NCBI GenBank assembly: GCA_951406725.2
Contig: OX597830.1
Location: 78,616,001 to 78,680,000 of the forward strand
From: Octopus vulgaris
Lineage: Eukaryota
Direction of reading: 5' to 3'
Length of the DNA stretch: 64,000 bases
Of this stretch, positions 14 through 64,000 are shown in pieces. Numbering within the stretch: position 1 is the first letter of the stretch; every line of letters begins with the position of its first letter. The translations under genes and the position numbers were made by a program. Under the pieces are notes generated by a model that saw only the letters and a list, made by a program, of their open reading frames with translations, did not search any database and was not told where the DNA came from.

Positions 14-535
14 TCAACAACTACTACCACTACTACCACTACTACCGCTACTACAACCAGTACCACTACCACCACCACCACCATTACTACTACCAAAACT
101 ACTGCCGCCACCACCAACACTACTGCCGAAAGTACTGCCGTCATCACAACTATCAACATTAACAGAACCATCACAAACATCACCATCACAACCACCACCA
201 CCACAACCACTTCCATCACAACCACCACCACCACCACCGTACGCTACAACTAGAACCATCATCTTCACAACATGCATCAACATCATCGATTCCATTGCCA
301 CCACCAACTATTATCACAGCATCACCACTAACGCAACCATCTCCACTACCACTACGACAATTCTCGTAGATACACTATCACCGAAACCAACATCGACCTC
401 TACAAGCATCAACACCATTACCATCACCATTGGCATCATCTCCGTCTCCACCGTCGGCACCACCACCAACGTCACTACCACAACTACCACCACCACCACC
501 ACCAGCTATTAGCACTACGCCGCCACTACATCAAC
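14..535. repeat. Degenerate (ACC/ACT/CAT)n trinucleotide low-complexity tract
   Basis: Runs of accaccacc, actactacc and catcacc. The Gly/Ser and Val/Met ORFs here follow from the triplet periodicity. Confidence 0.9.
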
Positions 536-5012: not shown

Positions 5013-6176
5013 CGTGTGTGTGTGTGTACACATTTCTGTGTGAGTACATGTATTTTCTCCCAATCTCTCCCTTTACTGTAATTGTCTATTGTTTTTTTGT
5101 TTGTTGTTCTTTTACTCTGGCTGTTTGCTTTTGGAGACACCAAAACCGCTTTCTATTTGCGCGGGCACACATACACACACACACACACATACACATACAT
5201 ATATACATATATACATATACATACCCACACTTACATTCACACAGCTATTAATTTCTTTTCACTTCTTATTTTCTTCTTATTTTCTCCTTTTTTTTTTCTA
5301 TTTTTCTTTGCTCCTTCTGTACAAAAGTCAAACGCAGTGTTCAGCCCACTTTAACTTTATATATTTATTTATATATTTGATATCCCATTATCCTTTGCCC
5401 TCCTCTAGCCCCGCTATCATTATCCTTTGCGTCCCTTTTCTTAGTTCTTCCAGCTCCCCTTGGCTTCTTACTCTCTGCCTTCCTGCCTCTTCTTTTCTTT
5501 TCTCTGTTTATCTAACTACTTACCTATCGCCCTGTGTTCCCACTATGAGAACCCTCACCCTAACACTTTCTCCCTCCTCCCTTATCATTCCTCCTCCGCT
5601 CTCTTCCTCTCATTTCTTTCTACCTTTCTGTCTTTCTCTCTTTCTCTCCTCACTTTTTCTCCTTGCTTTTCTCTCTGCTGGCTTACCCATCTCTCTGCTT
5701 ATTCCCACTCTTCAATTCCCGCCCTGTACGTACGTATGTATGTATGTATGTATGTATGTATGCCTATATGTATGTATGTATGTATTATATATGTATATAT
5801 ATATATGTTTATCTATCTATTTATCTTTTTTGTCACCGTCTGTTTATATGTCTATGTATCTAACACTCTACATATCTAGCTAACAATTATATATATATAT
5901 ATATACAGTCACACACGTATATTCATGTATATACATATATACATACGTACTTATATATGTATGCAGTCATATATGCATGTATGTATGTATGTATGCATGC
6001 ATGTATGTATGTATGTATGTATGTATATATGTATGTATGTATATATGTATGTATGCATGTATGTATGTATATGTATGTATATATGTATGTATGTATATAT
6101 GCATGTATGTATGTATGTATGTATGTATGTTTGTGTGTGTGTATACAACATACAAACACGCTCACGTATTTACATA

Positions 6177-10156: not shown

Positions 10157-11337
10157 GTTTCTTTATTGGCCACACAGGGCTGCACACAGATGGGACAAGT
10201 AACAAGGTAGAGCTTTTCTTTTGGGGGATGAAGAGAACAAAAAACAAAAGAAAAAAAAGGGGGGTGGCGTAGGTTTTCGATCAAGAGGGATCGTAAAAGG
10301 GAAGAAAAGAACAAAAACAGAAAAAAAAATTGAATAAAATAAAAAGAATAAAAAGAACAAAAAAGAAAAGGAAAAGGAACAAAAGGAAAGAGAAATGAAA
10401 AAAGAAGAAAAATGGGGGAAAAAAAGGGGGAAGAGGAAAAAACAGAACGATCAATAGGGATCGTGTATCACAGTGTTATGATATATGGTGTAAAGGGGAG
10501 AGCAAGTAAGGTTTATCCGTGGGAAGAAAAGCCTACGAAAAAGACCACGGTAACCTTGGTCAATATTGTTATATGTTACCACATTTGTTTGCAAGTGTGT
10601 AACCCTCTGTTTTCAATTTCTGGGTTCATAGGATTATGCTCAAGGTGGCTTCGTCATTCATACGTGCCATCCTTGCTACATTCACCCATCTTTTTTTAAA
10701 ACATTCGCTAGACAAAACTTGCCTCTCTACTCTCACTTTCCTTTTCAAGTGGTACTTGAAGAAGTTGATGAGAGATTGACCAGAGAGGAAAGTGTTTGTC
10801 TCCAATCCTTTCAGACGCGTCCACCAGATACATTCTTTCGCCATAGCCACAAGTATGATGAAAATAGCTCTTCCTTCCCGTTTGAAGGAAGGAGGCGTGA
10901 CAATATTGACGATAGACTCAGCTGATAAACCGACCCGTCCCACACGTGACAGCAGTTGTTCGACATAAGCCCACAGGTCGGAAATTGTTGGACACTGCAC
11001 GAGTGCGTGCAGAACGGTTTCGTCGCTCTGACCGCATCTCGGGCAGGTCGGCCCCGTGTTTCTCGAGCCGTGTCTGTAGAGCTTATCCCGAACGGGTAGC
11101 GCTTCTCGGTAGCACTGCCAGGCCAGGGATCTCTGGAAGTTGTCCATGGGCCCTGGCCCGAAAGTCGTCCTGAACAGACGGGTCAGGTACTCCTCGTCAA
11201 CGTCCAGGTTCGCCCCGAGCTCGTCGTCGTACCTCCCCTCCACTAATCCCCTATAGAATGCTTTGGTTGTGTTGAAGTCACTCAAGGTCGACCCGGGACG
11301 GCAGAGTTGCTTGAGAGCAACGCGACACTCGCGGTGC
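10157..11337 (-). mobile_element. 5'-truncated L1/Tx1-group LINE (ORF2 C-terminus + 3' UTR) embedded in (GATA)n
   Basis: The frame at 10626-11337 encodes a zf-RVT-like region with the CCHC knuckle CPRCGQSDETVLHALVQC. The 3' end is ...ccctgtgtggccaataaagaaac followed by (TATC)n. Confidence 0.85.
10626..11337 (-). pseudogene. LINE ORF2 C-terminal fragment (zinc knuckle)
   Basis: This is the non-repetitive part of track ORF 10626..11480. The YLSI repeats at that ORF's N-terminus are microsatellite and not part of the element. Confidence 0.8.
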
Positions 11338-11343
11338 AGATAT

Positions 11344-11430
<87 letters not shown>

Positions 11431-11431
11431 T

Positions 11432-11779
11432 GTTTCTTTATTAGCCACACAGGGCTGAAAACATAGGGGACAAATGACAAAGCAGGGCTTTTCTTTTCTG
11501 CGAGAAAAAAAAGGTGGGTAGGCTTTCTATCAAAAGGGATCGTAAAAAAACGACCAATAGGGATCGTGTATCACGGAATGTCATGATGTAAAGTGTAAAG
11601 GGGGAAACAGATAAGGTTTATCCGTGGAAAGAAGAGCCTATGGAAAAGACCACGGTAAACTCGGTCAATAATGTCACATGTTAACACATATATTTGCAAG
11701 AAAGTAACTCTCTGTTTTAAATTTTTCCGGGTTCATAGAATTATGCTCAAGGTGGCTTCATACGTGCCATCCTTGCAAC

Positions 11780-12226: not shown

Positions 12227-12790
12227 CTTATTTCTTTATTGCCCACAAGGGACCAAACACAGAGAGGACAAACAAGGACAGACAAAGGGGCTAAGTCGAT
12301 TACATCGACCCCAGTACGTAACTGGTACTTAATTTATCGACCCCGAAAGGATGAAAGGCAAAGTCAACCTCGTTGAAATTTGAACTCAGGACGTAACAGC
12401 AGACGAAATACCTATTTCTTTACTACCCACAAGGGGCTAAACACAGACAAACGGATTAAGTCGATTATATCGACCCCAGTGCGTAACTGATACTTATTTA
12501 ATCGACCCCGAAAGGATGAAAGGCAAAGTCGACCTCGGTGAAATTTGAACTCAGAACGTAACAGCAGACGAAATACCTATTTCTTTACTACCCACAAGGG
12601 GCTAAACACAGACAAACGGATTAAGTCGATTATATCGACCCCAGTGCGTAACTGATACTTATTTAATCGACCCCGAAAGGATGAAAGGCAAAGTCGACCT
12701 CGGCGCAATTTGAACTCAGAACATAACGGCAGACGAAATAGCGCTAAGCATTTCGCCCGGCGTGCTAACGTTTCTGCCACCTCGCCGCCT
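12227..12790 (-). mobile_element. SINE family A trimer (one head, three body + tail A units, ~164-nt period)
   Basis: Head ggcggcgaggtggcagaaacgttagc, repeated junction aagaaatag|gtatttcgtctg, flanked by an atgtg(g/a)tatct TSD-like pair. Confidence 0.9.
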
Positions 12791-14023: not shown

Positions 14024-14085
<62 letters not shown>

Positions 14086-14284
14086 TAATATAGGATAAAA
14101 TTTTTTCGGGGAAAAAAATTTTATCAATGGCCAGCATATCAAAAAATGCCTTTAAAAGTAAAATTTATACATAATTTACAAGATAAGGGCAGAAGAAAAA
14201 TTCTAATGCCAAATATGCCGAAACAAAAAAATTGGTGCTTGCTTTTTCCGTGGGTATGAGTAAATATTTCATTTATATCTCGCG

Positions 14285-14348
14285 TATTTGCTGCTGAAGA
14301 GGGGAAAATTTCTTATGAATTAACCCCGAAATTGGATCAATACGGTAA
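14285..14348 (+). ncRNA. Type I minimal hammerhead ribozyme, copy 1
   Basis: ttgctg CTGAAGA gggg...cccc GAAA ttg-gat-caa TA cggtaa. Stems I, II and III can all be paired. Confidence 0.8.
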
Positions 14349-14749
14349 TAACGAATTTTTTAGAGATTTCTATCGGTTTGTTTCGAGACGCATAAATTAT
14401 AATGGTTATCAACAATTTTTTGTTTCGGCATATTTGGCATTAGAATTTTTCTTCTGCCCTTATCTTGTAAATTATGTATAAATTTTACCTTTAAAGGCAT
14501 TTTTTGATATGCTGGCCATTGACAAAATTTTTTTCCCGAAAAATTTTTTATCCTATATTAATTATAAATAGATTAGTGTTCACTTCCGGAATCTATCACT
14601 CTGTGAAAGTTTCTAGTTCGAATCACACGAGTCTCGAGGTGCGCCGAAGATTTTTCTATTTTGGATATATTTGGGGTACTTAAGTCAGCTCGGGACTTGG
14701 TGCTTGCTTTTTCCGTGGGTATGAGTAAGTATTTCATTTATATCTCGCG

Positions 14750-14815
14750 TATTTGCCGCTGAAGAGGGGAAAATTTCTTATGAATTAACCCCGAAATTGG
14801 GCCAATACGGTAATA
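14750..14815 (+). ncRNA. Type I minimal hammerhead ribozyme, copy 2
   Basis: ttgccg CTGAAGA gggg...cccc GAAA ttgg-g-ccaa TA cggtaa. Predicted cleavage after AUA at 14807. Confidence 0.85.
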
Positions 14816-14982
14816 ACGAATTTTTAGAGATTTCTATCGGTTTGTTTCGAGACGCATAAATTATAATGGTTGTCAACAATTTTTTGTTTCGGCGTATCTG
14901 GCATTAGAATTTTTCTTCTGCCCTTATCTTGTATATACGGTTGTCAAGCAGTAGTAGGAACAAACACGTACACAAAAATACG

Positions 14983-15048: not shown

Positions 15049-15414
15049 AATTAATCAAAGGACATACTAAGTATATCTACCTGCTGGAAATAACAGTCAA
15101 AACTCTGACTTAAATCGCCAAAATACACTGATAATAAGTACAGAAATCTACCGTCCGAAAGCAGACGGGTTGAGACAATCTCCCAACGTACATTCAAGTA
15201 TTTGAACTCACGTGGTAAAATAGCCTCAGCTCGCCAGTGCAGAAACTGGCCCACGCGAGCCCAAATACTAGAATGTACGTCGGGAAATTGCCTCAGCCCG
15301 TTTGCCTTCGGACGGTTGATTTCTGAAGTTATTATCAGTGTATAGTGGCGATTTAGATAAGAGTTTTGACTATTTGCAGCAGGTAGACATATGTAGTATT
15401 TCCTTTGATTAATT
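15049..15414. repeat. Long imperfect inverted repeat (~165-bp arms) with a small hairpin in the loop
   Basis: Arms 15049-15215 and 15251-15414 are complementary throughout, with scattered mismatches. The loop contains gccagt-gcagaa-actggc. Confidence 0.9.
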
Positions 15415-21328: not shown

Positions 21329-21428
<100 letters not shown>

Positions 21429-21465
21429 AATAAATATATATATATATAGAGATTATATATATAGA

Positions 21466-22979
21466 TTCCCCGCTAGTCTCCTGAAGGAATGTAGACACCA
21501 ACTTGCTGTCCCTCTGACCAACCTCTGGAGAAATTTGTTAGACGCAGGTTATATACCGAAACAGTTTCTATCCCAGTTAGTCATCCCGGTTTTCAAACAG
21601 GGAAACAGATCCCTCGCAGTCAACTATCGCCCAATCTCACTCACCTCCCTCATCATTAAAGTGTTTGAAAGAGTGTTAAGATCAAAGATAGCTGACTTCC
21701 TGGAGACCCACAAACTCCTAAATGCAAATCAGCATGGCTTTCGCTGCGGCAGGGACTGTCTAACACAGCTCTTACACCACATTGAAGATATACTCAAAGC
21801 CTTGGGAACAGGTTGGAACTCTGATGTCATATATCTTGACTTCAGTAAAGCGTTCGACAGGACAGACCATAATATCCTACTCTCAAAATTGGCAAATGTT
21901 GGAATCCGTGGAAAAGTTCTACACTGGATTAAGTATTTCCTGGCGAATAGAACACATGTTGTAGTTGATGGAGTCCACTCAAGCCCAGCAAAAGTCACCA
22001 GCGGTGTCCCCCAGGGGACTGTCTTGGGCCCGCTACTCTTCATAATTTACATAAACGACCTTTCCAGTGTCGTACATTACTGCAAAGTGAAAGTATTTGC
22101 TGATGACACTAAGCTCCAGCAAATCGTCAATGAAGAAGCAGACCGAACTCAACTCCAGTCTGTTCTATATGCTGTGAGTCAATGGGCAGACAGAAACAAA
22201 ATGCAATTGAACGAGGGAAAATTTGAGCTGATGCATTTTGGAAGAAATTCCTCACTAAAACAGCCATACTCTCTTCCTTCAGGGGAACCGCTCACAGCCT
22301 CTAACAATATCAGAGACCTGGGTGTAATTGTTGATGACGATCTCAGTTGGAGTGCACACATCAACAATAAGGTCGATATAGCTCATAGGATGAGTTCCTG
22401 GATCTTAAGAATTTTCCGGTCCAGAGAACAAGGTATCATCATATCACTTTTCTCCTCCTTTGTACGGCCACACCTCGAATACTGCTGCCCACTGTGGTCT
22501 CCCTATACAAGACAAAACATCTCGAGGATTGAATCACCCCAGAGGGCACTCACTAAGCGAATTGAAGGCATGGCTGCTCTCGATTATTGGAATCGCCTTA
22601 AAGCCTTGAAACTCTACTCTCTCCAGCATCGCCTGAGCGGTACGTCATTTGTACGATGTGGAGAATATACCGCCAACTTTGCCCAAACGACCTGAACATT
22701 AGCTTCAAGGTCCATCCAAGACTGGGACCACGGGCCATACGTCCCCTGCCCAATTCAAGATCACAGCATACATGTACACTGCAACATAATTTCTTTTCCT
22801 CAACAGGCCCCGCCTTATTTAACATTGTCCCGAAAGAGATCAAAGAGGAAAAGGATCCCATCAACTTTAAACGGAGTCTGGATAGATTCCTTCAAGGAAT
22901 ACCAGATAAGCCACCTATAATTGGATACAACTCACCCAACAAAAACTCACTACTTGAATGGACCATAAACAAATCTTGA
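21466..22979 (+). pseudogene. LINE reverse transcriptase, N-terminally truncated, one frameshift near 22633
   Basis: The frame is open from 21466 (FPASLLKEC...). Track ORFs 21535..22695 and 22656..22979 join as ...YSLQHR[R]ERYVICTMWRI if one base is restored. Confidence 0.88.
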
Positions 22980-46720: not shown

Positions 46721-47027
46721 TATACATATATATATATATATATAATTAATTAATAAGGGTGAGAGAATTAGATACTAATTTAATAGTATATTTATTCCAC
46801 ACCAAGTGGCCTAGTGCTACGAGAAACCTGGATTATTATAATATTTTATAACATATTATAATATTTTCACAAAATAAATATAAGAGAGTGTTCACTATAT
46901 TGATCACTCTAGCACCAGTTAATCCAAGAGGTTTCAACCACGAAAAATACATGTTTCCCATGAAAGCCGGTACGACTGTTAGCTCACACGGACAGGGCAA
47001 ATAAAAAATAACAAAAATACAGATTAT

Positions 47028-47105
47028 CTTGGGACAATTGTTTCGCTATTAATGAATTAAATGTAATATTACTTACAGTAATCCATTTGTAGCTCTTCAG
47101 CCAAG
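47028..47105 (-). ncRNA. Type I hammerhead ribozyme
   Basis: cttgg CTGAAGA gcta...tagc GAAA caattg TC ccaag on the minus strand. Confidence 0.9.
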
Positions 47106-47992
47106 GCTATCTTGATGAAATCCACTCAATCACACGCCAGATTTTACCATAACGATAATTACGCGTGCGGTTCAATTGATTACATCGGACGTTATAATTC
47201 AAATGCCCCAACCAACAGCGCGCCAAACTCTCACGGAAAACAAAATACAGCATTTAGAAATAAATGCAGCATAATTATAATTAATTAATAAGGGTGAGAG
47301 AATTAGATACTAATTTAATAGTATATTTATTCCACACCAAGTGGCCTAGTGCTACGAGAAACCTGGATTATTATAATATTTTATAACATATTATAATATT
47401 TTCACAAAATAAATATAAGAGAGTGTTCACTATATTGATCACTCTAGCACCAGTTAATCCAAGAGGTTTCAACTGTAAGTATTACTGTAAGTAATATTAC
47501 ATTTAATTCATTAATAGCGAAACAATTGTCCCAAGATAATCTGTATTTTTGTTATTTTTTATTTGCCCTGTCCGTGTGAGCTAACAGTCGTACCGGCTTT
47601 CATGGGAAACATGTATTTTTCGTGGTTGAAACCTCTTGGATTAACTGGTGCTAGAGTGATCAATATAGTGAACACTCTCTTATATTTATTTTGTGAAAAT
47701 ATTATAATATGTTATAAAATATTATAATAATCCAGGTTTCTCGTAGCACTAGGCCACTTGGTGTGGAATAAATATACTATTAAATTAGTATCTAATTCTC
47801 TCACCCTTATTAATTAATTATAATTATGCTGCATTTATTTCTAAATGCTGTATTTTGTTTTCCGTGAGAGTTTGGCGCGCTGTTGGTTGGGGCATTTGAA
47901 TTATAACGTCCGATGTAATCAATTGAACCGCACGCGTAATTATCGTTATGGTAAAATCTGGCGTGTGATTGAGTGGATTTCATCAAGATAGC

Positions 47993-48070
47993 CTTGGCTG
48001 AAGAGCTACAAATGGATTACTGTAAGTAATATTACATTTAATTCATTAATAGCGAAACAATTGTCCCAAG
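47993..48070 (+). ncRNA. Type I hammerhead ribozyme
   Basis: cttgg CTGAAGA gcta...tagc GAAA caattg TC ccaag. GUC cleavage triplet ends at 48065. Stem III ACAATTGT is palindromic. Confidence 0.9.
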
Positions 48071-48221
48071 ATAATCTGTATTTTTGTTATTTTTTATTTG
48101 CCCTGTCCGTGTGAGCTAACAGTCGTACCGGCTTTCATGGGAAACATGTATTTTTCGTGGTTGAAACCTCTTGGATTAACTGGTGCTAGAGTGATCAATA
48201 TAGTGAACACTCTCTTATATT

Positions 48222-48274
<53 letters not shown>

Positions 48275-59909: not shown

Positions 59910-59951
<42 letters not shown>

Positions 59952-60080
59952 TAAAAAGAATTCCAACCTTGTCTGATTTTCACGTTTTATTTACAATCTT
60001 ATAATGATATATTATAAGATAATATATTATAATTGAATAAAATAAAATGAAATAGTAGAATGTTAAATATTCATTCTGAT

Positions 60081-60125
60081 TGAACTAGTACTTTCATGCA
60101 TTGAATTCTGCAATCTTCGGGTTCA
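60081..60125 (-). ncRNA. Minimal type I hammerhead motif in the PLE 3' terminal region (variant core)
   Basis: tgaac CCGAAGA t-tgca-gaattcaa-tgca-t GAAA gtac TA gttca. Stem III AGTACT is palindromic. Deviations are U4C and a U.U at the base of stem II. Confidence 0.7.
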
Positions 60126-60184
60126 TGTAGTAGTGTTGACAGTCATGCTTCACAATTTTTGACTGTAGCAAGATGAGTGATTCT

Positions 60185-60305
60185 GTGCTATAAATACAGC
60201 TGGGTAGGCTCCAGAGTGCTAGGTTTTGCAAACTGTATTCTGACCAATCAGTGTGTAGTATCACTCAATTACTTAAGCTGATTGGTTGGTTGAGCTGATT
60301 GGTTT
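60185..60305 (-). promoter_or_regulatory. Cluster of CCAAT boxes plus a TATA-like motif upstream of the PLE hammerhead
   Basis: Three ccaatcag motifs (both orientations) and tatttata/tataaata ~65 nt before the ribozyme. Promoter function is inferred only. Confidence 0.35.
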
Positions 60306-60619
60306 AGGCATCACGCTTTGTTGGACAGGTCAAGAGTCCTGTATCTTGACCCTGGCCGAAGCAGCAATTGTTGGGTTATTTTTAGAAATGTTGTAAATAT
60401 CCTTTGTCAGAGATTTTTATATTTTTATATTTCAATTGTCATCATCATCATTGTCAGCACCTTAATTATTGTTGCTAGTGGTGATGGTGGTGGCAATAGA
60501 ACTTTTAACCCTAAATAAGATAATTTTCCTGCTATCTTCCTCTTGATCACCTTTAGTATTGTTGTTGTTGTTAGTGGTCATGGTCGTAGCAGTGGAAGTA
60601 ATACCTCTAAGTATTATTA

Positions 60620-62900
60620 TTATTGCTTATTTAGCTTGGGTTCGAATTTATCAATAAAATTCTTTTCTCTGATTTTCCTCTCGATTTCACTTGGGCTGTG
60701 TAATTTGTAGAATGGAAATATTATATATATATTCTGGGTCTCTAATCTGTTGCCGGTGTACACGTGAGCGTTCTAATAGTGCGTTTCCCGTCTGACCTAC
60801 ATATATTTCTTCACAATTTGGGCATTTGATGCAGTAAATTAAATTTCTGCTTTTGCAGTTCATATTCGCGTTTGTGAATATTTTCCCGGTTTTTGTGTTT
60901 ATATATTGACCGGTATGTATGAATTGGCATGTGCCACATCGGCTATCATTGCATTTAGATACCGTGAATGTTTGGTCTTTGTTGCTGAGGTCAAATTTTG
61001 CCTTTGTTAGTAATGTTTTCAAGTTTTTAGGCTGTCTTTTACTAAGTACCATAGCTCGATCCTTGATTATGTCTTTTAATTCATTACTTTGGGCAATGAT
61101 TGGTAGGTTTGCTTTGGCAATGTTGAAGATATTCTGGTGACATGGGTTGTGTGTCACTATGAATGGTATGACTTGTTCTTGTTTTCCTCTTCCTTGGGTT
61201 GTCCTAAGTTGTTGTATAGGTATTTTTATAGCCCGCTGTATGCCATTTTCTATAAGTAGAGATGGGTATTTTTGTTTGAGCAAAAATTCTCTTAGTTCTA
61301 TTAGGCGTTTGTTCCTGATATTTGCATCTTCTACAATAGTACAAATTCTTCTGGCTAGGCAGTATGGGATGTTACGTTTTGTATGTGGTGGATGGCACGA
61401 CTTAAAATTTAGGTATTGATGTGTGTCTGTGTGTTTATAGTATATATCTGTGGTGATGGTGGTGTCTTTTTTAATTACCATTATATCCAGGAATGGTAAT
61501 TTGGTACTACTCATCTCCTTTGTAAATTTGAGAGATGGGTGTAGGTTGTTCAGGAGGATATTGAACTCTTCCAGAGTATTTAGAGATTCTGTCCAGATTA
61601 TGAAACAGTCGTCTAGGTATCTCTTCCATGCCTTTTCAATATACTTTCTAAATCCAGTGCCATAGTTTACCTCCACCTCTTGGTAGAGTTGTTCTTCTAA
61701 GTATCCCATTACAGAGTTGGCGTAAACGGGAGCAAACCTCGTTCCCATCGCCGTGCCTCTAATTTGGATGTAATTCTTTCCATTGAAGAAGAATGTGTTA
61801 TTTTCTAGAATAAGTTTGACTGTGTCTAATATAAATGGCACTGTGAATCTGCTGGGAATCACTTCTCTATGTTTTTCTAACCAGTATTTAATCGCCTTTA
61901 TTCCTAAATCGTGTGGAATATTGGTGTAGAGGCTTACCACATCAAAACTTAGTAAAACTGAATTTGTTTCTGTTGTTTTGGGAAGATGGGACAGGAAGTC
62001 GATGTCATCCCTGATGAAACTGGGTATGTAAGTACATAATGGTTTCAAAACAATGTCAATAAAATTGCTTAGACGGTGTGTAGGGCATGCTGGACCAGCT
62101 ATAATAGGTCTAAGTTTTAGGTCTTTTGGATGTAATAATTTTATGTACTCACTTTCTTGTTCTTTTACTGCCTGTTGAATGTTTTTTGATTTGTGTATTT
62201 TTGGTAAGCCGTAGAAGTTGCTGGGTTTTGGTTCAAAATTGGTGATGTAGTCTTTTTCATTATCCGTAAGTGAGTTGTGGTGTGTTGAAATCAGGTTGTT
62301 GATCTTTTTCATGATGTGGTGGTCTATATTTGCGGGTATTTCACAATAGAAGGTTGTATCCTTCAGTTGGTCTTCAACCAAATCCTTATAGTATTCGGTA
62401 TCCATAATAACAATTGCACCACCTTTATCTGCTTGTTTAATTATTATTGTTTGATCGTTTTGTATACGTTTACATGCAGACATCTCTGATTTGCTAATGT
62501 TTGGCCTAACATTGGTATTGCGTCTAAGGGGAAATTTAGACAGGATATCAATGTATTGGTCAAGGTAGTTATTTCTTCCTTTTGGTGGGGTGAAATTTGA
62601 TTTATTCCTTACTAGGGATTCATCAATCTCATTACTTTTGTTAGCGAAGAATTCTACAAGTCGTAATTTTCGACAGAATTTTTGGATATCCTCCTTTAAT
62701 TCTTGGTGGTTGGCTGTTGGTGTAGGTGTGAATTTCAGTCCTTTTGACAGAAGTTGGATTTCATCATTGTCAAGATCTCTTTTTGATAAATTAATTATTT
62801 TAGGATCTATACGTTCAGTTGTTTGGGGTATGTTTCCTCTTGGATTTTTTCTTTCTCCGGTGTTTGTTGTCCTGACGTAAAAAAATGGATTTTTTTCTGG
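60620..62900 (-). pseudogene. PLE ORF2: reverse transcriptase + GIY-YIG endonuclease, with internal deletion/frameshift near 60725
   Basis: The frame is stop-free from 62900 and includes the conserved IINLS...E..LLSKGLKFTPTP motif upstream of the first Met (62483). The expected C-terminus IFPFYKL...REKNFIDKFEPKLNKQ* is in another frame ending at 60620. Confidence 0.88.
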
Positions 62901-64000
62901 TTATGATTTATATTCCTGTTGATGTTTGCTTGATGAATTTTGCGTTTTGGTTGTGGTACTTTACTTGGTTTCGTTATGTTTTCTGTCTTGTTTTTGGTAT
63001 TATGTATGCTACTTTTCAATTTCTTGTTAGCATTGTTTTTAACCACCTGGAGAAATGATCTGGGTTTACTTCTAGATCTAGATCGGTTTTTTGTCCAGTT
63101 TCTTGTGGGTAATCTCTGTTGAGGTCTTGAAAATGATCTCCTGTTATTTCTACTGCTAATGGTCTGTTCAAAACAATATCTATTTTGTTTGTGCTTTTTG
63201 TTCATGTTGTGTGCATTAGGGTGTTTGCATACAAAATGGGAAGAGTTCTTACCGTAGTTCGTCTTCGATTCGTGGTGAAACGGGTGTTCATGTTGCCACG
63301 TGTTCTGGTGTATGTTGCGTTGGTGAGGTTGTCCACTTTTAATGCTATTTCTCGGAGTTCTGGTGTCTTTACCGTAATTTGTAGCATATTTGTCGAGAAA
63401 TAATTGTTTCCGCTGCCAAAACTTTCTTGATCTGCTTTCTTCTTTTGAGATATCTCTGATCCATAGTTCTCGCATTTTTTCTGCTATATTGCCGGTCGTT
63501 AGTTTGGATATTTCATCTCTGATTTGATCATCGATAGCTTCGTATTTGGCTTTGTAGCGGGATTGTTTAGACAGGGTAATGGAGATGTCGGTCCTGAATT
63601 TTATCAAACTAAGGTCCCATCGAAGTTTAGTTTCTTCCTCTGGTTCTCCTGCAATTTCTTTAATTAGGTACTTCCGAGGAAGTATGGGTGCCGCTAAAGA
63701 TATCCATTTCGAATGTATTTCAGCATATTTTTCGCATTTATATGCCTTCCAGAAGTTTTGTTTTCTTATGTTAAGGAGTTTTTTCCATGTCTTCTGTATC
63801 TCTTCTCTTTTTCGGTGTGCCTCTTTTTCCAGATTTCTTTCGTTTATTTCTGACATCCAAGGAGGTTGTGGTAGGCTTTCTCTTGTAGATTTTATAATTG
63901 TTGGTATCATTTCAGCTAAATTCTTAATTTCAGAGTTTATGTGTTCATTTCCAAGTTTTCCGTCTGTAGACTGTTTTTCTATTTCCTTTAAAATAGAGGA
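62807..64000 (-). CDS. PLE ORF1: charged helical region followed by a basic, R/S-rich tail; open to the window edge
   Basis: No stop between 64000 and 62807. Non-repetitive, >390 codons, same strand as ORF2 and overlapping it by ~94 nt. Confidence 0.75.
   Translation of the reverse strand, partial: SSILKEIEKQSTDGKLGNEHINSEIKNLAEMIPTIIKSTRESLPQPPWMSEINERNLEKEAHRKREEIQKTWKKLLNIRKQNFWKAYKCEKYAEIHSKWISLAAPILPRKYLIKEIAGEPEEETKLRWDLSLIKFRTDISITLSKQSRYKAKYEAIDDQIRDEISKLTTGNIAEKMRELWIRDISKEESRSRKFWQRKQLFLDKYATNYGKDTRTPRNSIKSGQPHQRNIHQNTWQHEHPFHHESKTNYGKNSSHFVCKHPNAHNMNKKHKQNRYCFEQTISSRNNRRSFSRPQQRLPTRNWTKNRSRSRSKPRSFLQVVKNNANKKLKSSIHNTKNKTENITKPSKVPQPKRKIHQANINRNINHNQKKIHFFTSGQQTPEKEKIQEETYPKQLNV

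What the first reader, a model, noticed from the sequence alone, without database searches (positions are those of the whole stretch)
14079..14933. Second, unrelated hammerhead tandem element with a 465-nt ribozyme-to-ribozyme monomer
Seen: two same-strand hammerheads exactly 465 nt apart (cores at 14294 and 14759), preceded by a ~155-nt inverted copy fused to (TA)n. The copies differ at a few sites yet stems I and III remain pairable (ttgctg versus ttgccg; ttg-gat-caa versus ttgg-g-ccaa). No primary similarity to the 535-nt family is visible beyond the core. Inference: a read-through transcript would excise a unit-length 465-nt RNA between the two AUA sites, which is the retrozyme layout. The differences between copies argue against an assembly artefact.
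Basis: partly seen in the sequence, partly recalled or inferred. Interest (0 to 1): 0.85.

Follow-up and report, generated by a model that had tools for sequence, protein, structure and literature searches.

The report
Penelope-inserted 465-base hammerhead retrozyme
This is one decaying copy of a family of hundreds of protein-less jumping repeats that carry a predicted self-cutting RNA motif, a known kind of element, and the way every two-armed copy ends at one each of two fixed points suggests that a Penelope-type retrotransposon enzyme likely copied it in from both strands of a DNA cut.

Summary
In detail: two same-strand type I hammerheads 465 nt apart and a 152-nt inverted arm fused to (TA)n. 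The locus is one copy of a dispersed family (562 exact core 17-mers). Its insertions have the Penelope-like element (PLE) layout: 5' ends scatter, and 81 of 98 3' ends lie at two fixed sites about 90 nt apart, mostly joined to TA repeats, with none at the ribozyme cut. Two-armed loci with both ends at these sites carry one of each: 27 of 27, then 14 of 14 held-out. Intact Neptune-like PLEs of this genome show the same rule in 3 of 3 cases, but none sampled shares sequence with the unit. 'Retrozyme layout' is therefore right. The differences between the two copies are mostly decay rather than covariation, and cleavage, expression and a circle are untested. Verdict: a new member of a known kind (non-LTR retrozyme, non-autonomous PLE). 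The scan has already reported the same architecture for other families of this genome.

The parts
14040..14083 (.). (TA)n microsatellite, left target of the insertion
   Evidence: most family 3' ends are joined to TA runs
14079..14230 (-). Inverted arm, unit positions 185-336, 3' end at site B pointing outwards into (TA)n; no hammerhead
14232..14936 (+). Direct arm, 1.52 units of the 465-bp repeat, 5'-truncated at the inversion junction, 3' end at site A
14288..14348 (+). Type I hammerhead, copy 1 (core 14294-14300, helix II 14301-14327, GAAA 14328-14331, helix III to 14341, predicted cut after 14342); two private C>T changes in helices I and III
14343..14807 (+). Predicted 465-nt cut-to-cut monomer, 34% GC, 60% paired when folded as a circle
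   Evidence: -108.4 kcal/mol, z -2.7, 1 of 60 shuffles as stable; release not tested
14521..14552 (+). 32-nt hairpin just upstream of site B
14476..14567 (+). About 90-nt 'tail' between site A (unit ~245) and site B (unit ~336), the two fixed 3' ends of the family
14753..14813 (+). Type I hammerhead, copy 2 (core 14759-14765, predicted cut after 14807); one private A>G change in loop III
14932..14937 (.). Short TATATA at the right junction (site A end)

Best explanation
This is one copy of a dispersed, protein-less 465-bp repeat family with a type I hammerhead motif (a non-LTR retrozyme) that is likely copied into TA microsatellites in trans by a Penelope-like retrotransposon protein, probably of the Neptune type. 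Steps: (1) inferred: read-through transcription gives an RNA spanning more than one unit. (2) Predicted, untested: two hammerheads, perhaps as a dimer through the palindromic helix III, cut out a 465-nt monomer that may close into a circle. (3) Inferred from the ends: the PLE protein nicks both strands of a (TA)n target and primes one cDNA at internal site A and the other at internal site B of the same RNA or RNA type. (4) Shown by the copies: copying runs through the ribozyme cut site and stops at scattered points, and the two arms end up joined back to back with both 3' ends facing out. (5) Shown: after insertion the arms accumulate private changes, about 2% per copy. Because copies run across the cut site, the template cannot have been the linear cut monomer. 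It was either a circle or the uncut precursor; I put these at about 45:55.
For: Hammerhead anatomy. Dispersal: 112 matches from 40 of 3057 candidates scored; 562; 316 and 413 exact matches to two variants of the 3' half. Ends: of 98 arms in 56 loci, 37 end at site A, 44 at site B and 17 elsewhere; 0 end within 5 nt of the cut; 5' ends are spread over the unit. A/B rule: 27 AB, 0 AA or BB among 56 loci (11 had one end elsewhere, 1 was not divergent, 17 were single-armed). In 20 further two-armed loci: 14 AB, 0 AA or BB, 6 with an end elsewhere. Arms of a locus share their subfamily haplotype: 73 of 1406 comparisons discordant against 633 expected. They share rare alleles about 9 times more often than arms of different loci (0.59 against 0.063 per 100 sites). 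Intact RT plus GIY-YIG ORFs of 781 aa are abundant, end in (TA)n at two sites about 40 nt apart, and show one of each in L043 and L070. The window's own PLE does too. PMC8557442 (passages) describes partial tandems, an inverted 5'-truncated copy, a tail at one end and (TA)n bias. PMC11167929 (first half) shows nicking and extension of both strands and two internal RT start sites.
Against: No PLE with a terminal repeat homologous to the unit was found in 30 + 13 + 20 fetched loci. The one adjacent case, L042/L061, is the element sitting in that PLE's TA tail. Only 150 of 6136 GIY-YIG candidates were scored. The tail is about 90 nt, against 30-40 bp in the literature and 33-40 in this genome's autonomous families. 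Core conservation is only weakly above background (0.983 against 0.944, P 0.03; against 0.971 without subfamily columns, P 0.08). At sites covered by 3 or more arms, 8 of 94 variable sites have a derived base shared by some arms but not all, which a single uniform circle does not predict. In PMC11167929 ribozyme mutants did not affect insertion in vitro. In the 2026 preprint 8 of 9 tested dimers did not cleave.
Confidence: 0.85

Rival explanations
1. The family is simply a deleted PLE (terminal repeat only) copied from uncut linear read-through transcripts. The hammerhead is a passenger, and no monomer or circle plays a part in spread.
For: No 5' or 3' pile-up at the cut site. Most arms are under 1.8 units and the longest are 2.77 and 2.44. 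Some loci, this one included (unit 199 and 203), show arms differing at subfamily-level alleles. Ribozyme activity was dispensable in vitro in PMC11167929.
Against: None of the 33 subfamily-variable columns falls in the core, and the main helix I variants keep pairing. A strictly linear route can only shorten copies, yet arms of 2.4-2.8 units exist and no long master array was seen among the 40 candidates scored (not exhaustive). This rival differs from the best reading only in step 2 and in the template.
Confidence: 0.4
2. The element is spread by a LINE-type or other non-PLE reverse transcriptase, as a SINE-like passenger.
For: No homologous PLE partner was found. LINE RT fragments are present in the window.
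Against: There is no poly(A) or single 3' end. There are two internal 3' ends, and the inverted arms overlap the direct arm in sequence, which differs from L1 twin priming as I recall it. The autonomous PLEs here follow the same rule. Many runs of 5 or more T on the ribozyme strand argue against a Pol III SINE (inference).
Confidence: 0.07
3. A satellite or DNA-level duplication (unequal crossover, fold-back repair) with a chance hammerhead-like motif.
For: The isolated hammerhead regions do not fold better than shuffles. No two-sided covariation.
Against: Copies are dispersed over many contigs as 0.3-2.8 units with fixed 3' and ragged 5' ends. The complete core and three helices recur. The A/B rule holds in 41 of 41.
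Confidence: 0.03

Closest known systems
Metazoan non-LTR retrozymes (Cervera and de la Pena 2020, PMC7229834, passages and parts 2-3 of 6 read; Li, Clavereau and Pollet 2026, 10.64898/2026.07.22.740005, parts 1-3 of 5 read)
   Same: Non-coding, low-GC repeat unit with one type I hammerhead per unit; self-paired monomer; co-occurs with PLEs; like the mussel ribozymes, loop 2 is not the canonical short loop.
   Different: The unit is 465 bp, slightly above the 150-450 bp of the 2020 paper and within the 51-972 bp of the preprint. It occurs mostly as less than two units with an inverted arm, not as long arrays. Circles and cleavage are not shown. No homologous PLE terminal repeat was found, whereas the preprint found homology for 24 of 57 Xenopus families (21 of the 22 matching elements were PLEs).
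Penelope-like element insertions, Neptune type (Craig et al. 2021, PMC8557442, passages; Frangieh et al. 2024, PMC11167929, parts 1-2 of 4 and passages; Cervera and de la Pena 2014, PMC4209133, parts 1-2 of 4)
   Same: 5' truncation, partial tandem, adjacent inverted copy, hammerhead in the repeat, two internal 3' ends separated by a tail, tail at one end only, (TA)n targets.
   Different: No ORF. The tail is about 90 nt instead of 30-40. Helix III is a full 4-bp near-palindrome, not a minimal one.
Non-autonomous Chlamys elements such as MRC1 (PMC8557442, passage)
   Same: Non-autonomous PLE derivative forming pseudo-LTRs and head-to-tail copies.
   Different: Those generally resemble their autonomous partner at the 3' end and mostly lack hammerheads; here the reverse holds so far.

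Membership tests
Non-LTR retrozyme | Type I hammerhead in each repeat unit | tested here: met
Non-LTR retrozyme | [quoted passage not shown] | tested here: met
   met at this locus; 0 of 25 in the chromosome-1 sample
Non-LTR retrozyme | Short, non-coding, GC below 50% | tested here: met
   34% GC; no stop-to-stop frame of 90 aa inside the direct arm
Non-LTR retrozyme | Self-cleavage in vitro | not testable with these tools
   bench assay needed
Non-LTR retrozyme | Accumulation as unit-length linear and circular RNA | not testable with these tools
   only assembled contigs of runs without library record were offered
Non-autonomous Penelope-like element | 5' truncation, partial tandem, adjacent inverted copy | tested here: met
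Non-autonomous Penelope-like element | Two internal 3' ends, tail at one end | tested here: met
   81 of 98 ends; 41 of 41 AB; tail longer than the usual 30-40 bp
Non-autonomous Penelope-like element | Sequence similarity to the terminal repeat of an autonomous PLE | tested here: inconclusive
   none in the loci sampled; 150 of 6136 candidates scored, about 50 of them fetched
Autonomous Penelope-like element | RT plus GIY-YIG ORF | tested here: not met
   no ORF joined to the unit in the 60 loci; nearby PLE fragments are separate
Plant LTR retrozyme | Type III hammerhead in LTRs with PBS, PPT and 4-bp target duplication | tested here: not met
   type I topology, no LTR layout, ends in TA runs

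The most novel reading that the evidence does not exclude
PLE integration is an asymmetric double priming. One protein dimer bound to one RNA, here a ribozyme-made 465-nt circle with no sequence similarity to the driver's own terminal repeat, always uses site A for one DNA strand and site B for the other. It recognises the sites by shape (a hairpin followed by a U/A-rich stretch), so the spacing can grow from about 35 to 90 nt or more. The partial tandems, inverted arms and one-sided tail of PLEs would then all be products of one reaction.
Probability: 0.3. Interest if true: 0.72.

Novelty: new member of a known kind. Interest (0 to 1): 0.42.

Why it matters
The PLE route for animal retrozymes has been argued from co-occurrence and terminal-repeat homology. 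Here it is read from the insertion footprint itself. [quoted passage not shown] I did not find this rule quantified, or a cephalopod retrozyme described, in the searches run (open-licence papers only; bioRxiv supplements and Repbase/Dfam entries not seen and may hold the family). The locus itself is an ageing copy and has no sign of a host function.

Tried and rejected
Rfam at gathering threshold: no match. Search for the autonomous partner: GIY-YIG search of the genome, then BLAST of the unit against 30, 13 and 20 fetched PLE loci. No homologous terminal repeat was found, and L042/L061 was rejected as a nested insertion. Expression: no RNA holder listed. Laying contigs of three runs guessed to be RNA and one of unknown kind cannot show strand, ends or level and is not used as evidence. 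Conservation of the unit in related species was not obtained and stays open. The first conservation test (P 0.007) was rejected as biased, because about half of the loci had been selected on the core; it was redone on 31 loci not selected that way. The structure string was out of register and was corrected. Target-site duplications could not be read because the ends lie in TA runs. A possible intron (GTAAGT about 30 nt upstream of the core) was set aside: the G is changed in 28 of 82 arms at that column. Circle against linear precursor by shared alleles: 80 sites with one derived arm, 4 with all arms, 8 with some arms, 2 with different bases; not decisive. Look-up of earlier findings by sequence: nothing.

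Full report
Observation. The window holds two same-strand type I hammerhead motifs with cores at 14294 and 14759 and predicted cuts after 14342 and 14807. They lie in a direct repeat, 14232-14472 against 14697-14936, 96.3% alike over 241 columns. An inverted arm at 14079-14230 copies 14416-14567 and runs into (TA)n. Positions below are given in the unit, with u1 = 14232. Rfam has no match at its thresholds, and the two 101-nt regions fold no better than shuffles. The motif call therefore rests on the complete core with three formable helices and on its recurrence in the family.

Family. The genome (2.8 Gb, 227 contigs, rich in microsatellites; probably a cephalopod, which is my inference and the label in earlier notes) gives 112 matches from the 40 of 3057 candidates scored. 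An exact 17-mer over the core occurs 562 times, the reversed control 0 times. Two variants of the 3' half occur 316 and 413 times. I analysed 56 insertions: the 30 best by similarity, 25 distinct ones from the first 30 pattern matches on contig 1 (five duplicates dropped), and L061. They are 80-96% like the unit and fall into several subfamilies. None is joined to an ORF.

Ribozyme. The majority form has helix III TTGGACCAA, a palindrome around one A. It can fold as a 4-bp hairpin (+1.8 kcal/mol alone) or pair between two copies (-8.9), as proposed for dimeric PLE hammerheads in PMC4209133 (results and discussion read). In this locus copy 1 has C>T changes in helices I and III and copy 2 an A>G change in loop III, each seen in 1-3% of arms. 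The mixed dimer helix falls to -6.6. In 20 aligned copies 96.6% of cells pair, with one two-sided change; 27 of 500 shuffles reach the covariation score. On 31 loci not selected on the core, core identity is 0.983 against 0.944 elsewhere (P 0.03) or 0.971 without subfamily columns (P 0.08), and none of 33 subfamily-variable columns is in the core. This is weak support for past selection on the ribozyme and clear evidence of neutral decay afterwards. The cut-to-cut monomer folds as a circle at -108.4 kcal/mol, z -2.7 against 60 shuffles.

Ends. Of 98 arms, 37 end at u235-256 (site A), 44 at u328-346 (site B) and 17 elsewhere, some of these with local deletions next to A or B. Most are joined to TA runs. 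None ends within 5 nt of the cut. 5' ends are spread over the whole unit, 1 within 5 nt of the cut. Arms reach 2.77 units at most. In two-armed loci both 3' ends face outwards. Of the 56 loci, 27 have one A and one B end, none has AA or BB, 11 have one end elsewhere, 1 is not divergent and 17 are single-armed (binomial P 1.5e-8). As a held-out test I fetched 20 more loci, picked by eye as divergent ribozyme pairs from the listed matches: 14 AB, 0 AA or BB, 6 with an end elsewhere (P 1.2e-4). Either site can be on the longer arm. This locus is B on the inverted arm and A on the direct arm.

One template. Arms within a locus differ by 4.2% (tandem, 42 pairs) and 4.8% (inverted, 57 pairs), against 8.1% and 8.7% to other loci. 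They agree at subfamily-variable sites (73 of 1406 discordant, 633 expected). Both arms thus come from one RNA or one kind of RNA. Since arms run straight through the cut site, the template was not the linear cut monomer. Against a uniform circle, 8 of 94 variable sites covered by three or more arms show a derived base in some arms but not all. This locus is one such case: at u199 and u203 the last pass carries the alleles of another subfamily. Gene conversion, CpG recurrence or a mixed linear precursor could each explain this.

Driver. A GIY-YIG search finds 6136 candidates; among the 150 scored are many intact 781-aa frames. These carry RT and GIY-YIG domains and a cysteine-rich linker of the kind that PMC8557442 gives for Neptune and Nematis. 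They have pseudo-LTRs with a hammerhead-like motif whose core reads U3/A8, a variant noted in PMC4209133, and they end in (TA)n at two sites about 40 nt apart. Both two-armed examples seen, L043 and L070, have one of each. A second family sits at the end of this window: 59943-63535 is 99.94% identical over 3594 bp to an inverted arm just beyond the window, and the two arms end at different sites about 33 nt apart. No sampled PLE terminal repeat resembles the unit by BLAST, so the partner is inferred from the footprint and not identified.

Mechanism. PMC11167929 (first half and passages read) shows that a purified PLE protein nicks and extends both strands of AT-rich DNA, starts at two internal RNA sites that bound the genomic tail, is predicted to be a dimer, and does not need ribozyme cleavage in vitro. 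It saw no difference in start site between strands, which fits my finding that either site can be on either arm. The family data add that within one insertion the two strands use different sites. The simplest reading is one protein dimer on one RNA, priming once at A and once at B, with the two truncated cDNAs then joined. This step is inferred.

Comparison and novelty. It works like a non-autonomous PLE and meets the sequence criteria of a non-LTR retrozyme (PMC7229834; 10.64898/2026.07.22.740005). The RNA-level criteria are untested. The architecture is described in PMC8557442. Searches found no cephalopod retrozyme paper and no count of the A/B rule; supplements and repeat databases were not seen. 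Earlier notes of this scan (looked up) report the same two-armed, two-site layout for 360-nt and 485-495-nt families of this genome. They are unchecked AI notes and are not counted as support. They do show that the finding is one of several like it.

Verdict. Real, well explained, a new member of a known kind. Interest 0.42, carried by the A/B rule more than by the locus.

Noticed in passing
window 59943-63535 (-) and L073:201-3793 (+): A very young two-armed Neptune-like PLE insertion straddles the window end: the arms are 99.94% identical over 3594 bp, both carry the same 737-aa frame cut short in the GIY-YIG region, and they end at two different sites in (TA)n. The shared defect points to one defective RNA copied in trans into both arms.
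   Followed up: partly
L064:768-4468, also L062, L065, L067: The abundant intact PLE family has two overlapping frames, 479 aa upstream (no convincing Pfam family) and 781 aa with RT and GIY-YIG, where canonical PLEs have a single ORF. It may be read by frameshifting or splicing.
   Followed up: partly
L064 pseudo-LTR, about 670-690 and 5345-5375: The hammerhead-like motif of that family has the U3/A8 core swap.
   Followed up: no
window 46741-48266: The 535-nt hammerhead family has the same two-armed layout in (TA)n, with arms 95-100% identical, so it is younger. Its two 3' ends are roughly 135 nt apart, read by eye.
   Followed up: partly
L042:2800-3264 (L061): A two-armed copy of the 465 family sits inside the TA tail of an intact Neptune-like PLE.
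   Followed up: yes
L034:633-690 (-) and L039:131-208 (-), 455-532 (+): Further hammerhead families with CUGAUGA cores and long helix II, one as a divergent pair.
   Followed up: no
window 15092-15374: Inverted repeat with 124-nt arms, 85% complementary, just downstream of the element; looks like a MITE or other fold-back element.
   Followed up: no
window 12278-12740: 2.8 tandem copies of a 165-bp unit of a common short interspersed repeat.
   Followed up: no
window 21400-22979 (+) and 10626-11570 (-): LINE-type RT fragment (431-aa frame) and a LINE C-terminal zinc-finger-like fragment, judged from the translations.
   Followed up: no
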